A stretch of 64,000 nt of DNA from Gammaproteobacteria bacterium (GCA_021156165.1 JAJNBM010000001.1:8577-72576), one strand, 5' to 3'. Numbered from the stretch's first letter, positions 25,183-35,499 are shown. Numbers and translations: made by a program. Notes: generated by a model not told the origin, from the letters alone.

Positions 25183-26502
25183 ATGCAAAAAATGAACAAT
25201 GTAACTGAATTTAAACGCCGCCGTCTCGCTTTACAATCCCAATTAAAACCACGCAGTATGGCGCTATTGATGGCGCGGCCGGAAGTATTGCGTAATGGCG
25301 ATACTGCCTATCCCTATAGGCCTGACAGCAATTTTTTCTATTTAAGCGGTCTTGCTGAACCTGAAGCCGTATTTATCTTATTATCCAAAGACTTGGGTGG
25401 GCAATGCATTTTATTTAACCGTCCTCGCGACCCTAAACTTGAACGTTGGAATGGCTTTATGCTGGGTCTAGAAGGGGCATTGTCTGAATTGGCCGTGGAT
25501 GAAGCTTACCCTATTGCTGAATTTCAACAAAAATTACCCGATTATTTACAACAAGTGCAATGCGTTTACGCGCCTTGGGGAAGAATGCCGCAATTAGATC
25601 AATGGATCATGGACGCACAAGAGCATTTAAAAAAGCAAGTGCGTAGAGGCGTTTCTTGGCCTACGGAATGCATAGATGTGCAACACATGGTAGACGAAAT
25701 GCGTGTCATCAAAAGCGATTATGAAATCCAGTTGATGCGCCATGCAGCGCAAAGCAGCGTAAAAGCGCATCGTGCGGTGATGCAATATGCCAAACCCGGC
25801 TTGCACGAATACCAAGTGGAAGCGCATTTTAATTACCATTGCGGCTTAGAAAATTGTCGCTTCCAAGCATACCCACCCATAGTCGCGAGCGGCGCCAATG
25901 CCTGTATTTTGCATTATGTAGACAACGCAGCGCCGTTGCAGGATGGCGATTTATTATTGATCGATGCGGGCGGTGAATATAACTATTATACTTCTGATAT
26001 AACGCGTACCTTCCCTGTGAATGGCCGCTTTAGCGAGCCACAACGACAAATTTACGAATTGGTATTAGCGGCACAGTTAGCGGGTATCGCTGCCGTGAAG
26101 CCGGGTGTTGCCTGGAATGAAGTGCAACGCGTGATGTTGCATATTCTAACGACGGGTTTAGTTGCCCTAGGGTTACTACAAGGCGATGTAGATACGCTGA
26201 TAGAGGAAAAAGCATTTTTACAATTTTATATGCACGGTTCAGGCCATTTTTTAGGCTTAGATACCCACGATGCGGGTGCTTATAAGATCGCGGGTCAATG
26301 GCGACTGTTGGAGCCGGGCATGACCTTAACGGTAGAGCCGGGCCTTTATATAGACGCCAACGATACTTCGGTGGATAAAAAATGGCGCGGCATAGGTGTG
26401 CGCATTGAAGACGATGTTGTCGTGACTAAAGAAGGCTGTGACATTTTAAGCGATGGCTTAATTAAAACAGTTGCCGATATAGAGGCATGGATGGCGCGAT
26501 GA
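25183..26502 (+). CDS. pepP: Xaa-Pro aminopeptidase
   Basis: 439 aa; pita-bread fold metal ligands (DAGGEY, HGSGHFLGLDTHD, VEPGLY, IEDDVVVT); pepP-ubiH-ubiI order as in E. coli. Confidence 0.85.
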   Translation: MQKMNNVTEFKRRRLALQSQLKPRSMALLMARPEVLRNGDTAYPYRPDSNFFYLSGLAEPEAVFILLSKDLGGQCILFNRPRDPKLERWNGFMLGLEGALSELAVDEAYPIAEFQQKLPDYLQQVQCVYAPWGRMPQLDQWIMDAQEHLKKQVRRGVSWPTECIDVQHMVDEMRVIKSDYEIQLMRHAAQSSVKAHRAVMQYAKPGLHEYQVEAHFNYHCGLENCRFQAYPPIVASGANACILHYVDNAAPLQDGDLLLIDAGGEYNYYTSDITRTFPVNGRFSEPQRQIYELVLAAQLAGIAAVKPGVAWNEVQRVMLHILTTGLVALGLLQGDVDTLIEEKAFLQFYMHGSGHFLGLDTHDAGAYKIAGQWRLLEPGMTLTVEPGLYIDANDTSVDKKWRGIGVRIEDDVVVTKEGCDILSDGLIKTVADIEAWMAR

Positions 26503-27821
26503 GTGATGAGAGCTATGATATTGTTATTGTAGGCGGAGGCCTAGTAGGCAATAGCTTAGCTTTGGCTTTAGCCCAATCCTCTTTACAAATAGCCGTTGTT
26601 GAAGCTATCGATTATGAACAAAAAACAGAAATTTCTATCCATAGCATTTCGAGTTGCGACGAGGCGTGTGCGCAGACGAGCAGCGCAGTGTACATACCAG
26701 TACATGAGCAGCGAGACAAGCATACAACAAAGTCGCAGCTTGAAAGGCGAAGGGTAGAAGACAATCGTGCTATAGGTCTCTCGTACACCTCCCAACGCAT
26801 TTTACAAAAACTAGGCGTGTGGCCGCAAATAGAAGCTAAAGCGCATCCTATAGACAGTGTACACATTTCATTGCAAGGCCGTTTTGGGGTAGCCACTATT
26901 TCAGCTGCAGAGCAGGGCTTGGCATCCTTGGGTTGTAATATCGATATTCATTATTTACAAAAAATTCTAGCGCACAGGGTGCGTTTAGAGGCTTTGGCTT
27001 TGTACGCACCCTATCGAGTCAACCTCTGCCATCGTGTGGAGGGACAATGGCAATTAACTTTGACGAATGGGCCTATAGAAAAAAAACTTAAAGCACGTTT
27101 AGTGGTTGCTGCAGATGGCAGTGATTCTGAATTAAGGCGTACTATGGGCATCACTGCACAAGTATGGGATTATCAGCAAAGTGCCTTAGTGTCCCGCTTA
27201 ACTTTCAGTAAACCTTTAAATAACCGATCCTATGAGCGCTTTACGCCTCTAGGCTTAATGGCCATATTGCCCGCAGGCGCACATGAAGCCACTTTCATTT
27301 GGAGCACAACGCACGACCAAGCCGCTTATTGGCAAAACGCCGATGAAAAAATAGTGTTGCAGCAATTGCAAAATATATGGGGTTATAGATTAGGGCGTTT
27401 GCAAAGCGCATCGCCCGCTGTTCATTACCCATTGCGACGTATAGAGGCCAATCAATTATATCAAGAGGGCTTCGTTTTAATAGGAAATGCCGCACAGACT
27501 TTGCATCCGGTAGCAGCGCAAGGTTTTAATTTAGGTTTGCGCAGTGCCATGATGTTGGCTGAAGTGTTGTGCTCGGCGCAAAAGGGTGGTCGTGATTATG
27601 CTGAGGCGGCTATTTTGGCTGAATATGTGGCTAAACAAGCCTTAGATAGAAAGCAGATCGCGCGGTTTACGCACTTTTTAGTGAGTCGTTTCGCCGCAGA
27701 CAGGGAATTTTTCAACCAGTGGCGACCTTTGGCTTTGTGCGGTTTAGAATGGGTTCCAGGAGCCAAATCTTTATTGGCGCGTTTAGGCTTAGGGGGCGCG
27801 CAAAAAGCATTATGGGTGTAG
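26487..27821 (+). CDS. ubiH: 2-octaprenyl-6-methoxyphenol hydroxylase-like FAD monooxygenase
   Basis: FAD Rossmann DIVIVGGGLVGNSLALAL, GD motif LVVAADGSDS, C-terminal LIGNAAQTLHPVAAQGFNLGLRS; carries a ~35-aa insertion after the Rossmann fold. Confidence 0.8.
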   Translation: MDGAMSDESYDIVIVGGGLVGNSLALALAQSSLQIAVVEAIDYEQKTEISIHSISSCDEACAQTSSAVYIPVHEQRDKHTTKSQLERRRVEDNRAIGLSYTSQRILQKLGVWPQIEAKAHPIDSVHISLQGRFGVATISAAEQGLASLGCNIDIHYLQKILAHRVRLEALALYAPYRVNLCHRVEGQWQLTLTNGPIEKKLKARLVVAADGSDSELRRTMGITAQVWDYQQSALVSRLTFSKPLNNRSYERFTPLGLMAILPAGAHEATFIWSTTHDQAAYWQNADEKIVLQQLQNIWGYRLGRLQSASPAVHYPLRRIEANQLYQEGFVLIGNAAQTLHPVAAQGFNLGLRSAMMLAEVLCSAQKGGRDYAEAAILAEYVAKQALDRKQIARFTHFLVSRFAADREFFNQWRPLALCGLEWVPGAKSLLARLGLGGAQKALWV

Positions 27822-29005
27822 TAAAAGAACAGTATAATATAATCATCGTTGGCGGCGGTATAGTAGGTTTAACCTTGGCTTTGTTGTTGGCGCAAAGCGA
27901 TAAACGCATAGCATTAATAGAGAAAAGAGCTAAAATAGAATCTTTTAATCGTGCACAATATGATGTGCGTGTGAGCGCGGTAACACCCGCTTCTGTTAAG
28001 CTGTTTGAACAGTTATCCGTTTGGAAGGACATGGTGGCGTTACGCGTCAGCCCTTTTACGCATATGCATGTTTGGGATGGGGATGGCCGCGGTAAAATTG
28101 AATTTGACGCGGCAAGTGCGGGCGTGAATCAATTGGGTTATATAGTAGAAAATAATGTAATGTTACAAGCGCTGTGGCAACGCGTCGCGTCTACAGCGCA
28201 AATTGAAGTGTTAAGCGATATCGAATTAGAATACTTAGAACGACATGAAAATAACCCTAACATCGAATTACACGGCGGCGATAGGATTTTAACTGCACCG
28301 CTGGTTATAGGCGCCGATGGCGCGCAGTCGTGGTTGCGGCAAGCGGCCCACATTGCTATGACGGAACGCGATTATCAACACCATGCTTTGGTGTGTACGG
28401 TCAAAACAGAAAAAGCCCACGATAAAACAGCGCGGCAGCGTTTTATGACAGAAGGGCCATTGGCATTTTTGCCGCTAGATGCAGCGCATTATTCTTCTAT
28501 TGTTTGGTCCAGTGCGCCTACCCATATTGATGCCTTGATGCAATTATCAGATGAGGGTTTTGCTCTAGCGCTAACAGACGCTTTTCAATCTCAATTAGGT
28601 GCGGTAATAGAAGTGGGGCCACGAGCAAGATTTCCTTTAATTATGCGTCATGCACAGCACTATGTACAAGCCGGTTTAGCCTTAGTCGGCGATGCCGCAC
28701 ACACGGTGCATCCTTTGGCAGGACAAGGTTTAAATTTAGGTTTAGCGGATGCAGCCTTATTAGCGGAATTGGTGTTAGAAGAGTACGCCCATAAAAATGA
28801 GTATGTAAAATACAGTACTTTAAGGCGCTATGAACGTGCACGCAAGACAGAGAATGCAACCATGTTAGCGGCTATGGATGGTTTTAAGCACTTATTTGGC
28901 AATGATATCCCTGTGATTAAATGGCTACGTCATCGTGGTTTGAATTTAACAGATCGCTCGAGCTTTATTAAGAGTTTGATTTTACAAAAAGCGATGGGGG
29001 TTTGA
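27812..29005 (+). CDS. ubiI: FAD-dependent ubiquinone biosynthesis hydroxylase (UbiI/VisC or UbiF-like)
   Basis: NIIIVGGGIVGLTLALLL, VIGADGAQSWLR, LVGDAAHTVHPLAGQGLNLGLAD; start moved to the internal ATG overlapping the ubiH stop. Confidence 0.8.
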   Translation: MGVVKEQYNIIIVGGGIVGLTLALLLAQSDKRIALIEKRAKIESFNRAQYDVRVSAVTPASVKLFEQLSVWKDMVALRVSPFTHMHVWDGDGRGKIEFDAASAGVNQLGYIVENNVMLQALWQRVASTAQIEVLSDIELEYLERHENNPNIELHGGDRILTAPLVIGADGAQSWLRQAAHIAMTERDYQHHALVCTVKTEKAHDKTARQRFMTEGPLAFLPLDAAHYSSIVWSSAPTHIDALMQLSDEGFALALTDAFQSQLGAVIEVGPRARFPLIMRHAQHYVQAGLALVGDAAHTVHPLAGQGLNLGLADAALLAELVLEEYAHKNEYVKYSTLRRYERARKTENATMLAAMDGFKHLFGNDIPVIKWLRHRGLNLTDRSSFIKSLILQKAMGV

Positions 29006-30054
29006 ACAATATGAAAAATGATAATCCCAGCCTCCAATCAGGCCATAATTTGATCAATCCTATTCGTGAACTGATCGTGGCTGCTCGAGGGCAGGTGCTG
29101 CGGGCTATCAATGGCAGTATGGTAGAAACTTATTGGAATATAGGCCGTTTGATTGTTGAAGAAGAGCAGGCAGGTGAACAGCGGGCAGCTTATGGCAAGC
29201 AGCAATTACAGCATTTGGCCAAAGAATTGACAAAAGAATTTGGAAAAGGCTTTGATGTGCGAAACTTGAGCAACATGCGTGCATTTTACCTTACTTTCTC
29301 AAATTGGAACGCAGTGCGTACCGAATTGAGCTGGACTCACTATCGGGCTTTAATCCGTATCGAAAATATACAAGCCCGAAAATGGTATATGCAAGAGACT
29401 ATTGCTCAAAGCTGGAGTGCACGCGCCCTTGAACGGCAAATATCGGTGCTTTATTATGAACGATTATTATCTAGTCAAGATCGGGCTTCGGTAATAGAAG
29501 AAGCAAAGGAAAAAGCCTCATCGTTAAATGAGAATAAACATGACTATCTAAGAGACCCTTATATCTTAGATTTTTTAAATCTTGATGGGCAACCATTCTT
29601 AGAAACAGATCTAGAGCAAGGCATTATTAACAATCTGCAAAAATTTCTCTTAGAGTTAGGGAAGGGTTTTGCTTTTGTGGCGCGCCAAGAGCGTATTCGC
29701 ACTGAAGATCAGGATTTTTATCTAGACCTGGTTTTTTACAATTTTAAACTAAAATGTTTTTTGCTGATTGATCTTAAACTGGGAAAACTCAATCATCAAG
29801 ATGTTGGCCAGATGGATACGTATATTCGCATTTATGATCAACATCGTAAAAATAGCGACGATAATCCTACCATAGGTTTAATCCTTTGTAGCCAAAAAAG
29901 CGAAGCGGTGGTTAAATACTCCGTTCTTACGGACAGCAAACAAATGTTTGCCGCAAAATATTTGGATCATCTGCCTACAGAGCAAGAGTTAAAACAGGAG
30001 CTAGAACGAGAGCGAGCTTTAGTACAAGAGCAATTGGAGAGTAAGTATGAGTGA
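29002..30054 (+). CDS. DUF1016/YhcG-like PD-(D/E)xK nuclease family protein
   Basis: C-terminal FYLDLVFYNFKLKCFLLIDLKLGKL fits a PD-(D/E)xK core with YhcG-type N-terminal helical domain; TTG/ATG start abuts the ubiI stop. Confidence 0.55.
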   Translation: MNNMKNDNPSLQSGHNLINPIRELIVAARGQVLRAINGSMVETYWNIGRLIVEEEQAGEQRAAYGKQQLQHLAKELTKEFGKGFDVRNLSNMRAFYLTFSNWNAVRTELSWTHYRALIRIENIQARKWYMQETIAQSWSARALERQISVLYYERLLSSQDRASVIEEAKEKASSLNENKHDYLRDPYILDFLNLDGQPFLETDLEQGIINNLQKFLLELGKGFAFVARQERIRTEDQDFYLDLVFYNFKLKCFLLIDLKLGKLNHQDVGQMDTYIRIYDQHRKNSDDNPTIGLILCSQKSEAVVKYSVLTDSKQMFAAKYLDHLPTEQELKQELERERALVQEQLESKYE

Positions 30055-30090
30055 TTTTTTCTGTATGCATTGGCGGGGGTGATTTATTAA

Positions 30091-33000
30091 ATGGAATTAG
30101 AAACAAAAGATGTAAAACAAGCTTATCTTTATTTAAAAAGCTATACCTACCAAGAAAATTTGAACTTATTTTTAAAGCAGAGAGTTGCAAAGTTTGAATG
30201 CGAATCATTTGATAGTAGCATTGAAAAAATTGTTCAAGTGCTTAAGTCTGAAGCCCCTCTAGACACAGAAGCTTTTAAGAAATGGTTATCAGAAATTGAC
30301 TATCATTTAATTCCTAAAACGGTTATCCGTCCAGAAGAGGAAACTCAGGGGAAGGGCGCCGATAGTAAAAAAGAAGGATTATTATATATTAGCAACGTTA
30401 AAACATCAAAAGAATATAAAATAAAGGCTAACTATTTTATTAATGCGCCTGTAGAGCTTCATATTATTGATGTGCTATGGTGCTTAGTTGTTGGTGCAGT
30501 TTTAGAGGATGATTTAACTAGAGATTGTTATGGTAATCGGATGCACGAACCTGCAAAAAAATTTAAGAATCCTAGTAGACCGAATCAAACACAATTATTT
30601 AAATATTATATTGATCAATATAATGAATGGCGTGATAAAGCAATCAATACAGCAATAGAACTATCAAAAAGCAAAGAAGATGTTGCTGTATTATCTTTAG
30701 ATTTAAAGTCTTACTTTTATCATATTGATTTGGATTTTAATTTAATAACAGATCGCATAGAAAGATCTAACAAAGGTGAATGGCGAGACTGTGCATTAAT
30801 GCTCACTAGGCTACTGGAAAAAATTTTTTCCAAGTATAGCTATAGAATTAGACCATTCTTAACGTTTACACATAATGACTGTAAAGATAAGCGAAGTTTG
30901 CCTATAGGATTTACTTCTTCTTCTATATTAGCTAACTGGTATTTAGTAGCATTTGATAAAGCTATTTCTGATGATGTTAGACCTGTTTATTATGGACGCT
31001 ATGTTGATGATATTTTAATGGTCTTTAAGCGTCCTAAAGTTAGTGCTTTTAATGAAATAGCAAGTTTTATAGAACATTATTTCCCCAACCTACTCAACAA
31101 GGGAACAAAAGAAGGGCTATATACTACTGTAATAGAAAAGAATGAATTGCCTATTCAAGAAGAAAAAATTATCTTTCAATATTTTAATAAAGAGCACAGC
31201 CCCGCTGGGCTAGAAGTTTTTAAACAGGAATTAGAAGAAAATAGCAGCGCATTTAAATTTCTACCTACTGATCATATTGATAAAGATCTAAACAAATTTG
31301 CCTATGACATTCTATATGATGGCTCCGCTAATAAATTTCGTAGTGTTATAGGGTTGGCAGAAAATGAGGCTGAACTATCAAAATATTTAACTAACCATAT
31401 TATTGCGCATCGTCTTTGTAAATCCAGTAGGAATGATAGCATATTACAGGATTTATCTCTATTTTTCAAAGGCAAAAATGCCTTAAGATTTAGCCGTATA
31501 TGGGAAAAAGTTTATCAATATGCTGTTGTTATAGGCGATAATAATTTTATTATAAAGTTTTTTGAAGATCTAGAGAATGAGATTGAAAAAGTATATGTCG
31601 TTAATGTATCTGCAATGGAGCACAGCGATGACGATAAAGAAAAACAGTATAAATTAACAGAAAAATTAAAGGAAGATTTACAATTATATAACCAGCTGTC
31701 CTTAGCACTTACGATGGCGCTTTTAGGCACAACAATAGAAGATATATCTTTATTTAGGAGTATGTCAAATATAAAAAATCAAGAAAAATTAAAAATGCTT
31801 ATCAAGAAATTAAATCCTGATTTAAACTATTTCAGAAGATCCAATTTGATCCGAGACAAATTAGTTGCATGGCCTTTAGCAAATTATAGTGATTTTAAAG
31901 GAGACCTGACAAAAGAAGAGTCAATTGCACATCCATGTCATAAAAAGTTAGATCCAAAAAAATTAGAATTAACCCCTCGTTTTATCCACTTCGATGAATG
32001 GCAAATATTTCATTTGCTGAATACATTAAGTAATGAAGAAGACTTAATGAAATCTCAACAGGATTCACTTAAAAAATATAAAAAGCGTTGCTTTGGAGAA
32101 ATCTTTCCTGTTAGCTATTCCGAAAAGTATGACTTTTGTTCAATGTCAGATTTGCAGGATGAAGAAAGTATAGAGAGTGGGAAAATCTATATAGATGTTG
32201 AGAAGAAAGCTTATAAAGTTCTTGACTTATCTAATGTAGTACAATCTGGTTCATTACAAAACATATTTTTGTCAGAGAATCTGTTTGACCCTAAGCTTAA
32301 TGAAGGAATCTTAGAATCCATATCAAAAGCAGGTCATGTTCAATGGGAGCCTGATAAATCAGTAGCAATTGAGACAAGAATAGTAACTATTGGAGAAAAG
32401 CCAAAAACCTCAGCATTACGTATAGCCTTGGCTAATTTACGTATCAATGAGAAGGACATAGAAAATGCAATCAGAAATGACCAAAAGCCGAACATTAGCT
32501 TTAAACGTCAAAAAAATCTCTATCAGATATTGAATGATGCAGTTAGAGAAGGAGTTCATCTACTTCTTATGCCAGAAGTTTCTATTCCAGTTAGCTGGTT
32601 GCCATTTATGGTAGCACATGCGCGTAGGCATCAATTGGCAATAATATTTGGGCTAGAACATTGGGTTATAGGTGAAAATGTTTATAACCTTTTAATAGAA
32701 GCTTTGCCTTTTAAAATATCGGGAAAATATAAATCCTGTGCTATGTTAGCACGGCTTAAAAATCATTATGCGCCAGAAGAGATATCGGCTATTAGATCGT
32801 TGCGTTTAAAGCCAGCTAACAATAACAAAAAAAAATTACCTAAACCCTATTACCACAAGGTAAAGTGGAATGGTATTAGTTTTGCAACTTATAATTGTTT
32901 TGAGCTTTCAGATATAGAGCATAGGACGCTTTTTAAGTCTAAAATTGATATTCTTTTTGCCTGTGTATGGAATAAAGATACAAATTACTATGAGCATATA

Positions 33001-33264
33001 CTTGAATCAGCGGTAAGAGACCTGCATTGTTATGTTGTCCAATCTAATACGGCCCAATATGGTGGGTCATGTGTCCTAAAGCCTGCCAAAACTGAGCATA
33101 AGACTATGCTTTACGTAAAAGGAGGCAATAATACCTGCATTTTAACTGTAGATCTAGATATTGAGGCTTTAAGAAAATTCCAATATCAATCAGAACCTAA
33201 TGAGAAAGATGAGTTTAAACATTTGCCGCCAGGATTCAACTCTAAGGAGGTCTTAGATAGGTGA
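30091..33264 (+). CDS. reverse transcriptase fused to C-terminal nitrilase (carbon-nitrogen hydrolase) domain; UG/Abi class 1, DRT1-like defence RT
   Basis: RT motif A VLSLDLKSYFYHIDLD (30691..30720), motif B-like FTSSSILANWYL, motif C YYGRYVDDILMV (YVDD at 31000..31011); long helical middle region; nitrilase triad LLLMPE (Glu codon 32575..32577), YYHKVKW (32857..32865), TYNCFELSD (Cys codon 32897..32899); AT-rich relative to flanks. Confidence 0.8.
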   Translation: MELETKDVKQAYLYLKSYTYQENLNLFLKQRVAKFECESFDSSIEKIVQVLKSEAPLDTEAFKKWLSEIDYHLIPKTVIRPEEETQGKGADSKKEGLLYISNVKTSKEYKIKANYFINAPVELHIIDVLWCLVVGAVLEDDLTRDCYGNRMHEPAKKFKNPSRPNQTQLFKYYIDQYNEWRDKAINTAIELSKSKEDVAVLSLDLKSYFYHIDLDFNLITDRIERSNKGEWRDCALMLTRLLEKIFSKYSYRIRPFLTFTHNDCKDKRSLPIGFTSSSILANWYLVAFDKAISDDVRPVYYGRYVDDILMVFKRPKVSAFNEIASFIEHYFPNLLNKGTKEGLYTTVIEKNELPIQEEKIIFQYFNKEHSPAGLEVFKQELEENSSAFKFLPTDHIDKDLNKFAYDILYDGSANKFRSVIGLAENEAELSKYLTNHIIAHRLCKSSRNDSILQDLSLFFKGKNALRFSRIWEKVYQYAVVIGDNNFIIKFFEDLENEIEKVYVVNVSAMEHSDDDKEKQYKLTEKLKEDLQLYNQLSLALTMALLGTTIEDISLFRSMSNIKNQEKLKMLIKKLNPDLNYFRRSNLIRDKLVAWPLANYSDFKGDLTKEESIAHPCHKKLDPKKLELTPRFIHFDEWQIFHLLNTLSNEEDLMKSQQDSLKKYKKRCFGEIFPVSYSEKYDFCSMSDLQDEESIESGKIYIDVEKKAYKVLDLSNVVQSGSLQNIFLSENLFDPKLNEGILESISKAGHVQWEPDKSVAIETRIVTIGEKPKTSALRIALANLRINEKDIENAIRNDQKPNISFKRQKNLYQILNDAVREGVHLLLMPEVSIPVSWLPFMVAHARRHQLAIIFGLEHWVIGENVYNLLIEALPFKISGKYKSCAMLARLKNHYAPEEISAIRSLRLKPANNNKKKLPKPYYHKVKWNGISFATYNCFELSDIEHRTLFKSKIDILFACVWNKDTNYYEHILESAVRDLHCYVVQSNTAQYGGSCVLKPAKTEHKTMLYVKGGNNTCILTVDLDIEALRKFQYQSEPNEKDEFKHLPPGFNSKEVLDR

Positions 33265-33946
33265 GAACATTTCCTTATACAATAATCGATCTCACGCACA
33301 CTCTAGACGAAAACATCCCTTCGTGGAATGGTGACTGCGGATTTCAGTGTCAAATTACTTGGGATTATTCTGATTGTACTACAGGGCCAAAATTCCGCAC
33401 ACAGGAGTTGATTATGCGAGCAGGAATGGGCACGCATATGGATGCGTCAGCGCACTGCATTCCCGGAGCGGCTAGCATTGAACGAATCCCCTTGTCGCAG
33501 TTGTGCGCGCCTGGCGTTGTGATTGATGTTTCAGCAGCGTGTCATGAACGTTATAGTGTATCGACACAAGATATAGCGCAATTTGAAAATGAATACGGCG
33601 CTATTGCCAGCGGTACTTTTGTGATGGTCAAAACAGGCTGGGAGCGTTTTTGGCATACTCCAAAAAAATACCATAATAACCATCTTTTTCCTTCTATATC
33701 TATAGAAGCCGCTGAGTTGCTGATAAATAGAGGCGTCTGTGGATTGGTATAGATACTTTATCTCCGGATCGGCCCGAAAATGGCTTCCCAGTTCATCAAT
33801 TATTTTTGGGAAAAGAAAAATACCTGGTTGAAAATGCGGCTCATTTGGATGATTTGCCTGCACAAGGAAGCTGGATTTTAGTATTGCCTATGAAAATAAA
33901 AGATGCAACAGAAGCACCTATTAGATTGATAGCTTTGGTGGAGTAG
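33261..33946 (+). pseudogene. cyclase-family (kynurenine formamidase-like) gene disrupted by a frameshift near 33745
   Basis: frame 1 encodes the HxGTHxDxPxH cyclase motif (GMGTHMDASAHC) and stops at 33752; the C-terminal part (GIDTLSPDRPENGFPVHQLFLGKE...IRLIALVE*) continues in another frame to 33946. Confidence 0.6.
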
Positions 33947-33955
33947 CGCTATAAA

Positions 33956-34294
33956 ATGACAATCATTAGTTACGAAGAATTTGACAAAGTTGATTTACGC
34001 TGCGGCACAGTCGTAAAAGTTGAAGCATTTCCCAAAGCGAGAAAACCTGCTTTTAAAGTTTGGGCTAATTTTGGCGCAGAGATAGGTGTTTTGCAAACGT
34101 CGGCGCAAGTGACAGTTCATTATACGCTTGAGAGTTTATTAGGCCGAAAAATTGTAGGCTGTGTCAACTTAGGAGAAAAGAATATTGCCGGATTTATCTC
34201 GCAGTTTCTTCTGTTGGGATTTGCGGATGAAGCGGGGGATATATTACTAACCGCGGTGGATCCTAAAGTTCCTAATGGGCGAAAGATGCATTAA
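33956..34294 (+). CDS. tRNA-binding domain protein (CsaA/YgjH, Myf domain)
   Basis: FDKVDLRCGTVVKVEAFPKARKPAFKVWANFG...VGCVNLGEKNIAGF is typical of the OB-fold tRNA-binding domain. Confidence 0.8.
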   Translation: MTIISYEEFDKVDLRCGTVVKVEAFPKARKPAFKVWANFGAEIGVLQTSAQVTVHYTLESLLGRKIVGCVNLGEKNIAGFISQFLLLGFADEAGDILLTAVDPKVPNGRKMH

Positions 34295-35499
34295 TTTGCA
34301 TCTAAAACCACATCCTTCTTTCCCAAAGCCATTTTCTGATACGGAAAAACCAACAAAACGGCCAAGCCTCCAAAAAGGGTTAACACAATTGCAAGTGGCA
34401 TATTGGAAGTAACGGGACGTAGCAATGCGACTGTACCCACTAATGTGGCCAGTAAAAATTCGGATGCACCTAGCAATGCAGCGGCAGTACCGGCAATGTC
34501 GGGGAAGGGTTCTAGCGCGCCCCCTGCGCCTGCACCCATCATAAAAGCACCCCCTATGCCTGCCAAAGCCGTGGGTACGAGAAAACTCCATAAACTAGTA
34601 CCTATGAATACAGTCCACAGCAACATGATAACACCGCTTAGAAAAAACAAGGCACTGCCTAATAAAGCTACTTGGGTGATGCCTAAGATAATATGCAATC
34701 TGCCTGCCACAATACTACCTATAAAGAACATAATACCGATGATTGCAAAATAATAGCCAAAATGGGTTTCGGATACATGCAAAGTATTAATTAAAACGTA
34801 GGGTGAGACGGAGAAGAAAGTAAAGAAAGAAGCCACGGCGCTGGCTGCTATAAAATTACAGGTAAAAAATTGTCTGTTTTTAATAACGCGCAGGTAATCT
34901 TTAAAACTACCCTCTAAGGAGGCATTTTTATTCTTCTCTTTGATGGTTTCGGATAAGCAGAGAGCAATAGCGATAAAAATGGCGACACCTAAGATCCCCA
35001 AAAAGAAAAAGGGCGCGCGCCAGCCAAATGAAACATCTAAGTAACCGCCAGCTAGAGGGGCTAAGAGGGGTGAAATAGCAATAGCCCCATTTAAATAGCT
35101 GTAGATTTGTGCCGATTCATTACCCTCAGATAAATCGCGCACGATAGCAAAAGCGCATACCATCATCCCGCAAGCGCCAAAGCCTTGTAAGATACGGGTA
35201 AAGATCAAGATATCTATGGATTCTGTTAAAACTGCGGCAATCGAGCCGAGCGTATATAATGCAATACTAAGTAAGACGATGCTCTTACGGCCAAAGCGAT
35301 CAGATAAAGGCCCGATAATGAGTTGTCCTACCCCTACGGCCAGCATGAATAAACTTAAGGTCAGTTGCACTAACCCGGGCGTAGTGTGAAATAGGCCAGT
35401 GAGTTTGGGTACCTCGGGAATAAAAATATCCTGCCCTACCGCAAAGCTAAACACTAAAGGGGCGAGTAAGAACACAAGTTTTAACGGCGTATATTTCAT
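34291..35499 (-). CDS. MFS transporter (Bcr/CflA drug-resistance type)
   Basis: 402 aa, 12 predicted TM helices, MFS motif GPLSDRFGRK. Confidence 0.85.
   Translation of the reverse strand: MKYTPLKLVFLLAPLVFSFAVGQDIFIPEVPKLTGLFHTTPGLVQLTLSLFMLAVGVGQLIIGPLSDRFGRKSIVLLSIALYTLGSIAAVLTESIDILIFTRILQGFGACGMMVCAFAIVRDLSEGNESAQIYSYLNGAIAISPLLAPLAGGYLDVSFGWRAPFFFLGILGVAIFIAIALCLSETIKEKNKNASLEGSFKDYLRVIKNRQFFTCNFIAASAVASFFTFFSVSPYVLINTLHVSETHFGYYFAIIGIMFFIGSIVAGRLHIILGITQVALLGSALFFLSGVIMLLWTVFIGTSLWSFLVPTALAGIGGAFMMGAGAGGALEPFPDIAGTAAALLGASEFLLATLVGTVALLRPVTSNMPLAIVLTLFGGLAVLLVFPYQKMALGKKDVVLDAN

What the first reader, a model, noticed from the sequence alone, without database searches (positions are those of the whole stretch)
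29002..33946. A roughly 5 kb accessory islet (PD-(D/E)xK nuclease + RT-nitrilase + decayed cyclase) wedged after the pepP-ubiH-ubiI operon
pepP-ubiH-ubiI is a conserved housekeeping operon. Directly abutting the ubiI stop are a DUF1016/YhcG-like PD-(D/E)xK nuclease gene, 36 bp later the RT-nitrilase gene, and then a frameshifted cyclase-family pseudogene. Only after these does normal-looking housekeeping resume with the tRNA-binding protein. The tight spacing and the 4-nt overlap between the RT stop and the cyclase GTG suggest co-transcription. DRT1-type RTs are usually described as single-gene systems. A physically coupled PD-(D/E)xK nuclease upstream would therefore be an unusual partnership and possibly a new two-gene variant. 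Alternatively the nuclease is an independent mobile passenger.
Basis: inference. Interest (0 to 1): 0.7.

Follow-up and report, generated by a model that had tools for sequence, protein, structure and literature searches.

The report
Old two-gene defence islet after ubiI
Two unrelated anti-phage genes, a DUF1016 nuclease and a UG5-type reverse transcriptase-nitrilase, sit in a variable slot behind a ubiquinone operon in an uncultured gammaproteobacterium; they look like neighbours, not a new two-gene system, so the finding is real but fairly ordinary.

Summary
The genes, the 36-bp spacer, the 4-nt RT-stop/cyclase-GTG overlap and the cyclase frameshift are all present at the stated coordinates.

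The segment is accessory. One close relative (L109) has ubiI followed 4 nt later by the tRNA-binding gene. Another (L108) has ubiI then an intact cyclase. More distant relatives carry other genes in the same slot, between pepP-ubiH-ubiI and ykuD-mrp-dcd.

The islet is old and vertically inherited. A sister lineage has the same DUF1016-37 bp-RT arrangement, diverged about as much as the flanking genes, with dN/dS of 0.09-0.20. A third lineage keeps only half of DUF1016 and a 28-nt relic of the RT.

The RT is UG5-large (class 3 UG/Abi, DRT11-like architecture), not DRT1/UG1. It has intact YVDD and nitrilase catalytic residues and no TM partner.

The DUF1016 protein matches PADLOC candidate PDC-S02. 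Its nearest outside homologues lie between hsdM and hsdS of type I R-M operons.

DUF1016 is absent from all 29 informative UG5 RT loci outside this lineage, so a two-gene system is not supported.

The cyclase has host-like composition and was recently broken by a 1-nt deletion.

The parts
27812..29005 (+). ubiI (UbiH/UbiF/VisC-family hydroxylase). It is the last gene of the conserved pepP-ubiH-ubiI block and the left border of the variable slot.
   Evidence: Pfam FAD_binding_3. The JGI gene call is 397 aa. It is conserved at 68-85% identity in all relatives.
29011..30054 (+). DUF1016/YhcG-family PD-(D/E)xK nuclease, 347 aa (the mechanical ORF starts at TTG 29002). It matches the PADLOC single-gene defence candidate PDC-S02.
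   Evidence: Pfam DUF1016_N and YhcG_C. PADLOC PDC-S02 matches full length at E 3.9e-143. The nuclease motif residues E215, D239 and D254-x-K256 are invariant in 14 homologues. dN/dS against the sister lineage is 0.087. The nearest outside homologues lie between hsdM and hsdS.
30055..30090 (+). 36-bp spacer between DUF1016 and the RT, with a GGGGGTGA Shine-Dalgarno-like run about 8 nt before the RT ATG. It is too short to hold a separate ncRNA.
   Evidence: Sequence. The sister lineage has a 37-nt spacer that aligns with it.
30091..33264 (+). UG5-large reverse transcriptase fused to a C-terminal C-N hydrolase (nitrilase), 1057 aa. The YVDD motif is at aa 304-307 (nt 31000-31011). The nitrilase domain spans about aa 790-1050, with E829, K890 and C936.
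   Evidence: PADLOC RT_UG5-nitrilase at E 6e-290 and 2.4e-245, and RTasNitrilase at aa 790-1050 with E 3.4e-39. Pfam RVT_1. The catalytic residues are invariant across 26 homologues. dN/dS is 0.11-0.20.
32098..32322 (+). An insertion of about 75 aa (roughly aa 670-744) in the linker before the nitrilase domain. It is absent from the 983-aa orthologue of the sister lineage, and part of it resembles the sequence that follows it.
   Evidence: Pairwise alignment of P0001 and P0002.
33261..33946 (+). Cyclase-family (PF04199, kynurenine-formamidase-like) pseudogene. A 1-nt deletion in a GGG run just after 33745 shifts the frame. An AAGGAGG Shine-Dalgarno sequence at 33244-33250 lies inside the RT 3' end.
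   Evidence: Pfam, alignment with the intact 228-aa genes of L035 and L020, and the C-terminal frame. Composition is host-like, GC 0.45.
33956..34294 (+). CsaA/tRNA-binding protein gene. It is the right border of the segment that is missing in relative L109.
   Evidence: NCBIfam NF007495 at E 1.9e-48. In L109 it lies directly after ubiI.

Best explanation
Window 29006-33955 fills a lineage-specific variable slot. The slot lies between the conserved pepP-ubiH-ubiI block and the ykuD-mrp-dcd block of an uncultured gammaproteobacterium. It holds two independent single-gene anti-phage modules and one decaying resident gene.

(1) A DUF1016/YhcG PD-(D/E)xK nuclease (PADLOC candidate PDC-S02). Members of this family usually ride as passengers inside type I R-M operons. 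I infer that it cleaves nucleic acid through its intact E-D-DxK site, with the helical N-terminal domain providing binding.

(2) A UG5-large RT-nitrilase, a class 3 UG/Abi reverse transcriptase with the same architecture as DRT11. From published work on DRT11 and DRT1, it is expected to act alone, in an abortive-infection-like way. That action needs both the YVDD polymerase site and the nitrilase Glu-Lys-Cys site. No template ncRNA is known for this class.

(3) A cyclase-family gene with host-like composition that was already in the slot. A 1-nt deletion has recently inactivated it.

The two defence genes entered between ubiI and the cyclase in the common ancestor of this genome and its sister clade. 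They have been inherited vertically under purifying selection. Sister lineages have deleted them partly or wholly.

The genes are packed so tightly (5 nt, 36 nt, a 4-nt overlap, 9 nt) that they are probably read through from the ubi operon promoter.

Shown: gene identities, intact motifs, the empty and partial sites in relatives, divergence, and the lack of DUF1016 partnership elsewhere. Inferred: defence function, mechanism and co-transcription.
For: Gene identities come, and intact catalytic residues.

The slot is variable. L109 has ubiI then the tRNA-binding gene 4 nt later. L108 has ubiI then the cyclase. L107 has ubiI then the MFS gene. L105 and L106 carry unrelated genes. All of these sit within the same conserved frame.

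The sister lineage has ubiI-DUF1016-37 nt-RT-468 aa-cyclase. Protein identity to the window is 89% for DUF1016 and 69% overall for the RT (about 76% in aligned columns). The flanking genes are 71-91% identical. dN/dS is 0.087 for DUF1016 and 0.11-0.20 for the RT.

L035 retains DUF1016 nt 1-567 plus a 28-nt relic of RT nt 32-59. This proves the RT was once present there and was then deleted.

Independence of the two genes rests on several results.
- tblastn finds no DUF1016 in any of the 29 non-lineage UG5 RT loci that have at least 1.2 kb of upstream sequence.
- The closest outside DUF1016 homologues (71-72% identical) lie in hsdM-DUF1016-hsdS-...-hsdR arrays.
- In 12 of 32 genome loci the RT lies next to type I R-M genes, typically as hsdM-hsdS-RT-hsdR.
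- GC3 differs between the two genes, 0.365 against 0.25.

From the literature: DRT11 needs only the RT and nitrilase domains, and no ncRNA was detected (PMC13436386). UG5-large has a TM partner in only 31 of 299 cases (PMC9226505). PDC systems are untested candidates found embedded in R-M, BREX and DISARM loci (bioRxiv 10.1101/2024.01.29.577857). DUF1016 is enriched next to type I R-M genes (PMC9881135).
Against: The DUF1016-RT adjacency and its 36-37-nt spacer are conserved in two lineages separated by dS of at least 0.5. In the two lineages that lost the genes, both were hit together. Some functional coupling in this lineage is therefore not excluded.

The window RT is only about 26% identical to the tested DRT11 protein, so transferring function and mechanism to it is a long extrapolation. 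No member of the DUF1016/PDC-S02 family has been shown experimentally to defend against phage.

Promoter and terminator scans were at chance level, so co-transcription is inferred from spacing alone.
Confidence: 0.75

Rival explanations
1. DUF1016 and the UG5 RT-nitrilase form a true two-gene defence system in this lineage. The PD-(D/E)xK nuclease would act as effector or processing partner, taking the place of the TM protein that accompanies some UG5-large RTs.
For: The adjacency, order and 36-37-nt spacer are conserved in the window and the sister lineage. Both genes are under purifying selection. Both were disabled together in L035 and both are absent from L109. The RT has no TM partner here.
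Against: DUF1016 is absent from all 29 informative non-lineage UG5 RT loci, including the closest RT homologues at 52-53% identity. Both families are described as stand-alone modules (PMC13436386; the PDC-S02 single-gene model). GC3 differs, 0.365 against 0.25. All instances of the pair trace to one ancestral insertion, so they count as a single evolutionary observation. Joint loss is expected for physically adjacent genes.
Confidence: 0.1
2. The pair is what remains of a type I R-M operon that carried embedded passengers (hsdM-DUF1016-hsdS-RT-hsdR) and later lost its hsd genes.
For: DUF1016 homologues sit between hsdM and hsdS. UG5 RTs sit between hsdS and hsdR in several genomes. The order DUF1016 then RT matches what such an operon would give. 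The extra 468-aa gene in the sister lineage has a weak DUF559 hit, and a DUF559 gene is embedded in the R-M operon of L104.
Against: No hsd remnant exists. The DUF1016-RT spacer is only 36 bp, and no HsdM, HsdS or HsdR similarity is seen in the slot of any relative. None of the 32 RT loci has both DUF1016 and the RT in one R-M operon. Three clean deletions would be required.
Confidence: 0.1
3. The gene order is native housekeeping organisation, not an islet.
For: One relative has the same order. The genes are packed operon-style.
Against: Four other relatives lack DUF1016 and the RT at this site. RT GC3 is 0.25 against 0.39-0.47 in the flanks. Both genes match defence-system profiles.
Confidence: 0.02

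Closest known systems
UG5-large RT-nitrilase systems (class 3 UG/Abi RTs), such as DRT11 of Sinorhizobium meliloti RMO17 and the E. coli E101 RT-nitrilase + TM system
   Same: A single polypeptide of about 1000 aa with an N-terminal RT (YVDD), a connector region and a C-terminal C-N hydrolase with its catalytic Glu, Lys and Cys. The best PADLOC profile is RT_UG5-nitrilase. As in DRT11, there is no TM partner and no room for an upstream ncRNA. It sits next to another defence-type gene.
   Different: It is only about 26% identical to DRT11 over about half its length. It carries an extra insertion of about 75 aa before the nitrilase domain. It is chromosomal and wedged into a housekeeping operon, not on a megaplasmid or in a P2/P4 hotspot. 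Its activity is untested.
   Same: RT fused to a nitrilase. It belongs to the same class 3 and the same nitrilase radiation.
   Different: The Drt1a profiles match only partially, at 98 and 52 bits, against 962 bits for the UG5 profile. UG1 proteins are 1200-1300 aa and often have a TM partner whose deletion compromises defence (PMC9226505, PMC13436386).
DUF1016/YhcG PD-(D/E)xK nucleases (PADLOC PDC-S02), passengers embedded in type I R-M operons
   Same: Full-length match to both Pfam domains and to the PDC-S02 profile. It is 70-76% identical to homologues across many phyla, with a conserved E-D-DxK motif.
   Different: Here it is not embedded in an R-M system. It sits directly after ubiI and directly before an RT gene.

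Membership tests
UG5-large (class 3 UG/Abi RT-nitrilase) | RT domain with the YxDD catalytic motif | tested here: met
   Pfam RVT_1 at E 3.6e-8. Y304-V305-D306-D307 are invariant in a 26-sequence alignment.
UG5-large (class 3 UG/Abi RT-nitrilase) | C-terminal fused C-N hydrolase domain with catalytic Glu, Lys and Cys | tested here: met
   PADLOC RTasNitrilase matches aa 790-1050 at E 3.4e-39. E829, K890, C936 and E938 are invariant. No Pfam CN_hydrolase hit was listed at E <= 0.01.
UG5-large (class 3 UG/Abi RT-nitrilase) | Best profile match is to UG5, not to UG1, UG6 or another RT group | tested here: met
   RT_UG5-nitrilase scores 962 and 815 bits. Drt1a scores 98 bits and Drt3a 64 bits.
UG5-large (class 3 UG/Abi RT-nitrilase) | Downstream small TM protein (clusters 85/1858). 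This is optional, reported in 31 of 299 members. | tested here: not met
   The RT stop overlaps the cyclase start, so there is no intervening ORF. A few homologous loci do have a TM-containing ORF of 105-229 aa downstream. DRT11 shows the TM protein is dispensable (PMC13436386).
UG5-large (class 3 UG/Abi RT-nitrilase) | Confers phage resistance that depends on both catalytic sites | not testable with these tools
   Needs phage assays.
DRT type 1 (UG1) | Full-length match to Drt1a and a size of 1200-1300 aa | tested here: not met
   Drt1a profiles match only aa 147-372 and 935-1031 (98 and 52 bits). The protein is 1057 aa.
DUF1016/YhcG (PADLOC PDC-S02) | DUF1016_N plus the YhcG_C PD-(D/E)xK domain, both above the Pfam gathering score | tested here: met
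   155 bits and 190.8 bits, against cut-offs of 32.8 and 32.5. PDC-S02 scores 475 bits over aa 3-347.
DUF1016/YhcG (PADLOC PDC-S02) | Conserved nuclease motif E...D...(D/E)xK | tested here: met
   E215, D239, D254 and K256 are invariant in 14 homologues. The family motif is described in PMC1189080.
DUF1016/YhcG (PADLOC PDC-S02) | Embedded in a type I R-M, BREX or DISARM locus (the basis on which the candidate was proposed) | tested here: not met
   There are no hsd genes in the window's slot. The nearest outside homologues are embedded between hsdM and hsdS.
Genomic/defence islet (accessory insertion) | Absent from the same site in close relatives that share conserved flanks | tested here: met
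   L109, L108, L107 and L105/L106 lack DUF1016 and the RT between ubiI and ykuD-mrp-dcd.
Genomic/defence islet (accessory insertion) | Mobility signatures: integrase, a tRNA target, or flanking repeats | tested here: not met
   No repeats were seen at the junctions when the occupied and empty sites were compared by eye. No integrase gene is present in the slot.

The most novel reading that the evidence does not exclude
In this lineage the DUF1016 PD-(D/E)xK nuclease has been recruited as the obligate partner of a TM-less UG5-large RT-nitrilase, for example as the effector or as the enzyme that processes its DNA product. That would make a new two-gene class 3 DRT architecture. It would have been kept intact for a long time inside a housekeeping operon.
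Probability: 0.08. Interest if true: 0.6.

Novelty: new member of a known kind. Interest (0 to 1): 0.3.

Why it matters
The finding adds a well-documented case of a very small defence islet with no integrase and no flanking repeats. The islet is embedded operon-style in a housekeeping gene array. It has been kept under purifying selection across divergent lineages and then eroded step by step in sister lineages: a full copy, a half-gene plus a 28-nt relic, and a clean empty site.

It also provides a divergent UG5-large RT-nitrilase, about 26% identical to the only TM-less member tested so far. That protein could be used to test how general the minimal RT + nitrilase mechanism is.

It does not reveal a new kind of system.

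Tried and rejected
- tblastn with the window's DUF1016, cyclase and tRNA-binding proteins against 32 genome loci that carry UG5 RT-nitrilase genes found hits only in the window's own lineage.
- I looked for a conserved partner of the RT by clustering neighbouring ORFs. Only type I R-M genes (hsdM, hsdS, hsdR, YgjP-like) recur. The 468-aa gene of the sister lineage has no counterpart near any other RT.
- Rfam at gathering thresholds found nothing in or near the islet. The only hit in the window is a 6S RNA far away.
- Promoter and terminator consensus scans were at the level of shuffled controls and do not settle co-transcription.
- Inspecting the occupied and empty junction sequences by eye showed no direct repeats or att-like sites.
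- Low GC cannot be used to date the acquisition. UG5 RT genes are AT-rich relative to their hosts in 26 of 27 loci, so the signal is a family trait.
- The metagenome scan with UbiI gave only one close relative, L035. The other 62 loci were at most 50% identical and uninformative about this slot.
- The contig that carries P0002 could not be read as DNA. Its sequence was pieced together from L098-L102 and L020 instead.
Full report
**Observation**

- ubiI ends at 29005.
- A DUF1016_N + YhcG_C protein is encoded at 29002/29011-30054 (Pfam E 1.6e-45 and 1.8e-56).
- After a 36-bp spacer comes a 1057-aa ORF at 30091-33264, with an RVT_1 domain.
- The RT's TGA (33262-33264) overlaps the GTG (33261) of a 163-aa Cyclase (PF04199) ORF that stops early at 33752.
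- The tRNA-binding protein gene starts at 33956 (NCBIfam NF007495).

The cyclase is broken by a single-G deletion in a GGG run just after 33745, judged against the intact 228-aa genes of two relatives. The same deletion is in a separately assembled Logan contig. The remaining 66 codons run in another frame to 33946.

The likely DUF1016 start is the ATG at 29011, which is conserved in the relatives and used in the JGI gene call. That is 5 nt after the ubiI stop.

Composition sets the RT apart: GC 0.324 and GC3 0.25. DUF1016 is intermediate at 0.40 and 0.365. The cyclase (0.45) and the flanking genes (0.42-0.47) look alike.

**What the genes are**

Against PADLOC profiles, the RT matches RT_UG5-nitrilase at E 6e-290 and 2.4e-245. 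The second of these matches is nearly full length. A separate RTasNitrilase profile matches aa 790-1050. The Drt1a (UG1) profiles match only in part, at 98 and 52 bits. So the protein is UG5-large, a class 3 UG/Abi RT, and not DRT1.

An alignment with 25 homologues shows the following residues to be invariant: GRYVDD (Y304-D307) and the nitrilase residues E829, K890, C936 and E938.

The RT is only about 26% identical to DRT11 of S. meliloti pSymA, the experimentally tested TM-less member. It carries an insertion of about 75 aa before the nitrilase domain that its closest orthologue lacks.

The nuclease matches the PADLOC single-gene candidate PDC-S02 over its full length (E 3.9e-143). Its E215...D239...D254-x-K256 motif is invariant in 14 homologues.

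**Is it an islet?**

The window comes from a gammaproteobacterial MAG (P0001). Using UbiI as a marker, I recovered a graded series of relatives and read their gene contexts. All of them keep pepP-ubiH-ubiI on one side and ykuD-mrp-dcd on the other. The content between these blocks varies.

| Lineage | UbiI identity to window | Content after ubiI |
|---|---|---|
| Window | - | DUF1016, RT, cyclase pseudogene, tRNA-binding gene |
| 'Mendota' (L098-L102, L020, the P0002 contig) | 84% | DUF1016, 37 nt, RT (983 aa), a 468-aa gene, intact cyclase |
| L035 | 85% | N-terminal half of DUF1016, a 478-aa gene, cyclase, tRNA-binding gene, S41 peptidase |
| L109 | 84% | tRNA-binding gene 4 nt after ubiI, then S41 peptidase; nothing else |
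| L108 | 80% | 174 nt, then intact cyclase, then unrelated genes |
| L107 | 76% | MFS gene directly |
| L105/L106 | 68% | unrelated genes |

The segment is therefore accessory. I saw no repeats at the junctions and there is no integrase gene.

**History**

Mendota, L035 and L109 are 91-95% identical to one another in PepP, UbiH and UbiI. Each is about 75-87% identical to the window.

Between the window and Mendota, protein identities are as follows:
- DUF1016, 89%.
- RT, 69% overall, or about 76% once the insertion is excluded. The first 603 residues are 71% identical and the nitrilase end is 88% identical.
- Flanking genes, 71-91%.

dN/dS is 0.087 for DUF1016 and 0.11-0.20 for the RT, against 0.06-0.16 for the flanks. 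dS is 0.5-0.8 for the islet genes and 0.9-1.2 for the flanks.

L035 keeps DUF1016 nt 1-567. This is followed by a 28-nt relic of RT nt 32-59 and then the region upstream of the 478-aa gene. The RT was therefore once present there and was deleted.

In Mendota, a diverged copy of about 46 nt of the cyclase 5' end (MVTFPYKIIDLTYTL) overlaps the RT stop, just as the real cyclase start does in the window. A second copy begins the functional cyclase downstream of the 468-aa gene. So the RT-stop/cyclase-start overlap is ancestral, and the 468-aa gene is bracketed by a direct repeat of the cyclase 5' end.

The simplest history has four steps.
1. The cyclase was already resident next to ubiI, as in L108.
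2. DUF1016 and the RT were inserted between ubiI and the cyclase, before the window lineage split from the Mendota/L035/L109 clade.
3. The pair was then inherited vertically under purifying selection.
4. It was later lost partially in L035 and completely in L109.

Low GC does not date the event. UG5 RT genes are AT-rich relative to their hosts in 26 of 27 loci, by 7 points on average.

**Is DUF1016 a partner of the RT?**

A genome-collection scan with an RT alignment returned 32 loci. tblastn with the window's DUF1016 found none within 10 kb of the RT in any locus outside the window's own lineage. Twenty-eight of those loci have at least 1.2 kb of upstream sequence.

The three closest outside RT homologues (52-53% identical) lie beside Lamassu/ABC-3C-like genes or an MNT-HepT pair, again without DUF1016.

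What does recur next to the RT is type I R-M. In 12 of 32 loci an HsdR-type gene is adjacent, and the typical order is hsdM-hsdS-RT-hsdR-YgjP.

Seen from the nuclease side, the two closest outside DUF1016 homologues whose contexts were read (71-72% identical) lie in hsdM-DUF1016-hsdS-...-hsdR arrays. This fits the published enrichment of DUF1016 next to type I R-M genes (PMC9881135). It also fits the origin of PADLOC's PDC candidates as genes embedded in R-M, BREX and DISARM loci (bioRxiv 10.1101/2024.01.29.577857).

The pairing seen here traces to one ancestral event, so it counts as a single observation. The conserved spacing and the joint loss leave a small residual probability.

**Mechanism (inferred)**

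Published work shows that UG5-large DRT11 needs only its RT and nitrilase catalytic sites. It behaves like an abortive-infection system and has no detectable ncRNA (PMC13436386). The E. coli E101 homologue needs a downstream TM protein (PMC9226505).

The window's RT has both sites intact, no TM partner and no room for an upstream ncRNA. I therefore expect it to act as a stand-alone module of the DRT11 kind.

The DUF1016 protein is expected to be a nuclease, but its defence role is untested.

Shine-Dalgarno-like runs precede each start: GGGGG before 29011, GGGGGTGA before 30091 and AAGGAGG before 33261. With gaps of 5 nt, 36 nt, -4 nt and 9 nt, read-through from the ubi operon is plausible. Consensus scans for promoters and terminators were at chance level and do not decide it.

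**Verdict**

This is a real and nicely resolved accessory islet, but an ordinary one. It consists of two known kinds of defence gene lying side by side plus a decaying resident gene. It rates as a new member of known kinds, with low-to-moderate interest.

Noticed in passing
L009, L010, L019, L029, L031, L032 (RT at about 10001-12950 in most) and six further loci: UG5-large RT-nitrilase genes are often embedded in type I R-M operons, between hsdS and hsdR (hsdM-hsdS-RT-hsdR-YgjP-like peptidase). About 12 of 32 genome loci have hsdR-type genes adjacent. I did not check whether this has been reported for UG5.
   Followed up: partly
L020:1191-2597 and L035:11953-13389 (absent from the window): Sister lineages carry an extra low-GC (0.32) gene of 468/478 aa between the RT and the cyclase. 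It has a weak DUF559 (Vsr-like endonuclease) hit at aa 272-353. It is only 76% identical between genomes whose housekeeping proteins are 93-95% identical. It is bracketed by a diverged direct repeat of about 46 nt of the cyclase 5' end (L020 about 889-935 and 2610-2655).
   Followed up: partly
window 32098-32322 (RT aa about 670-744): The window's RT has an insertion of about 75 aa in the linker before the nitrilase domain, compared with its 983-aa orthologue. Part of it (ESIESGKIYIDVEKKAYKVLDL) resembles the following segment (VAIETRIVTIGEKPKTSALRIAL), which suggests a diverged local duplication.
   Followed up: no
window 26487-27821 (ubiH): UbiH is 444 aa here, against 399-405 aa in all relatives. 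The extra length is not explained.
   Followed up: no
window 53468-53632 (-): 6S/SsrS RNA. It scores 69 bits against Rfam RF00013 and is the only Rfam gathering-level hit in the window.
   Followed up: no
27 UG5 RT loci: UG5 RT-nitrilase genes are AT-rich relative to the distal flanks of their host genome in 26 of 27 loci (mean -7 GC points, up to -18). Low GC is a family trait and not a marker of recent transfer.
   Followed up: yes
L001 14201-15410 versus window 34291-35499 (-): The JGI gene calls split the MFS transporter into 181-aa and 214-aa products on contig L001. The window has one intact 402-aa ORF. This could be an assembly difference or a gene-calling artefact.
   Followed up: no
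L108 4275-5687 (-); L001 22598 onward (window about 42690 onward): This clade encodes an ankyrin-repeat protein (L108) and a Fic-domain protein (downstream in the window). These may hint at a host-associated lifestyle for this uncultured gammaproteobacterial group.
   Followed up: no
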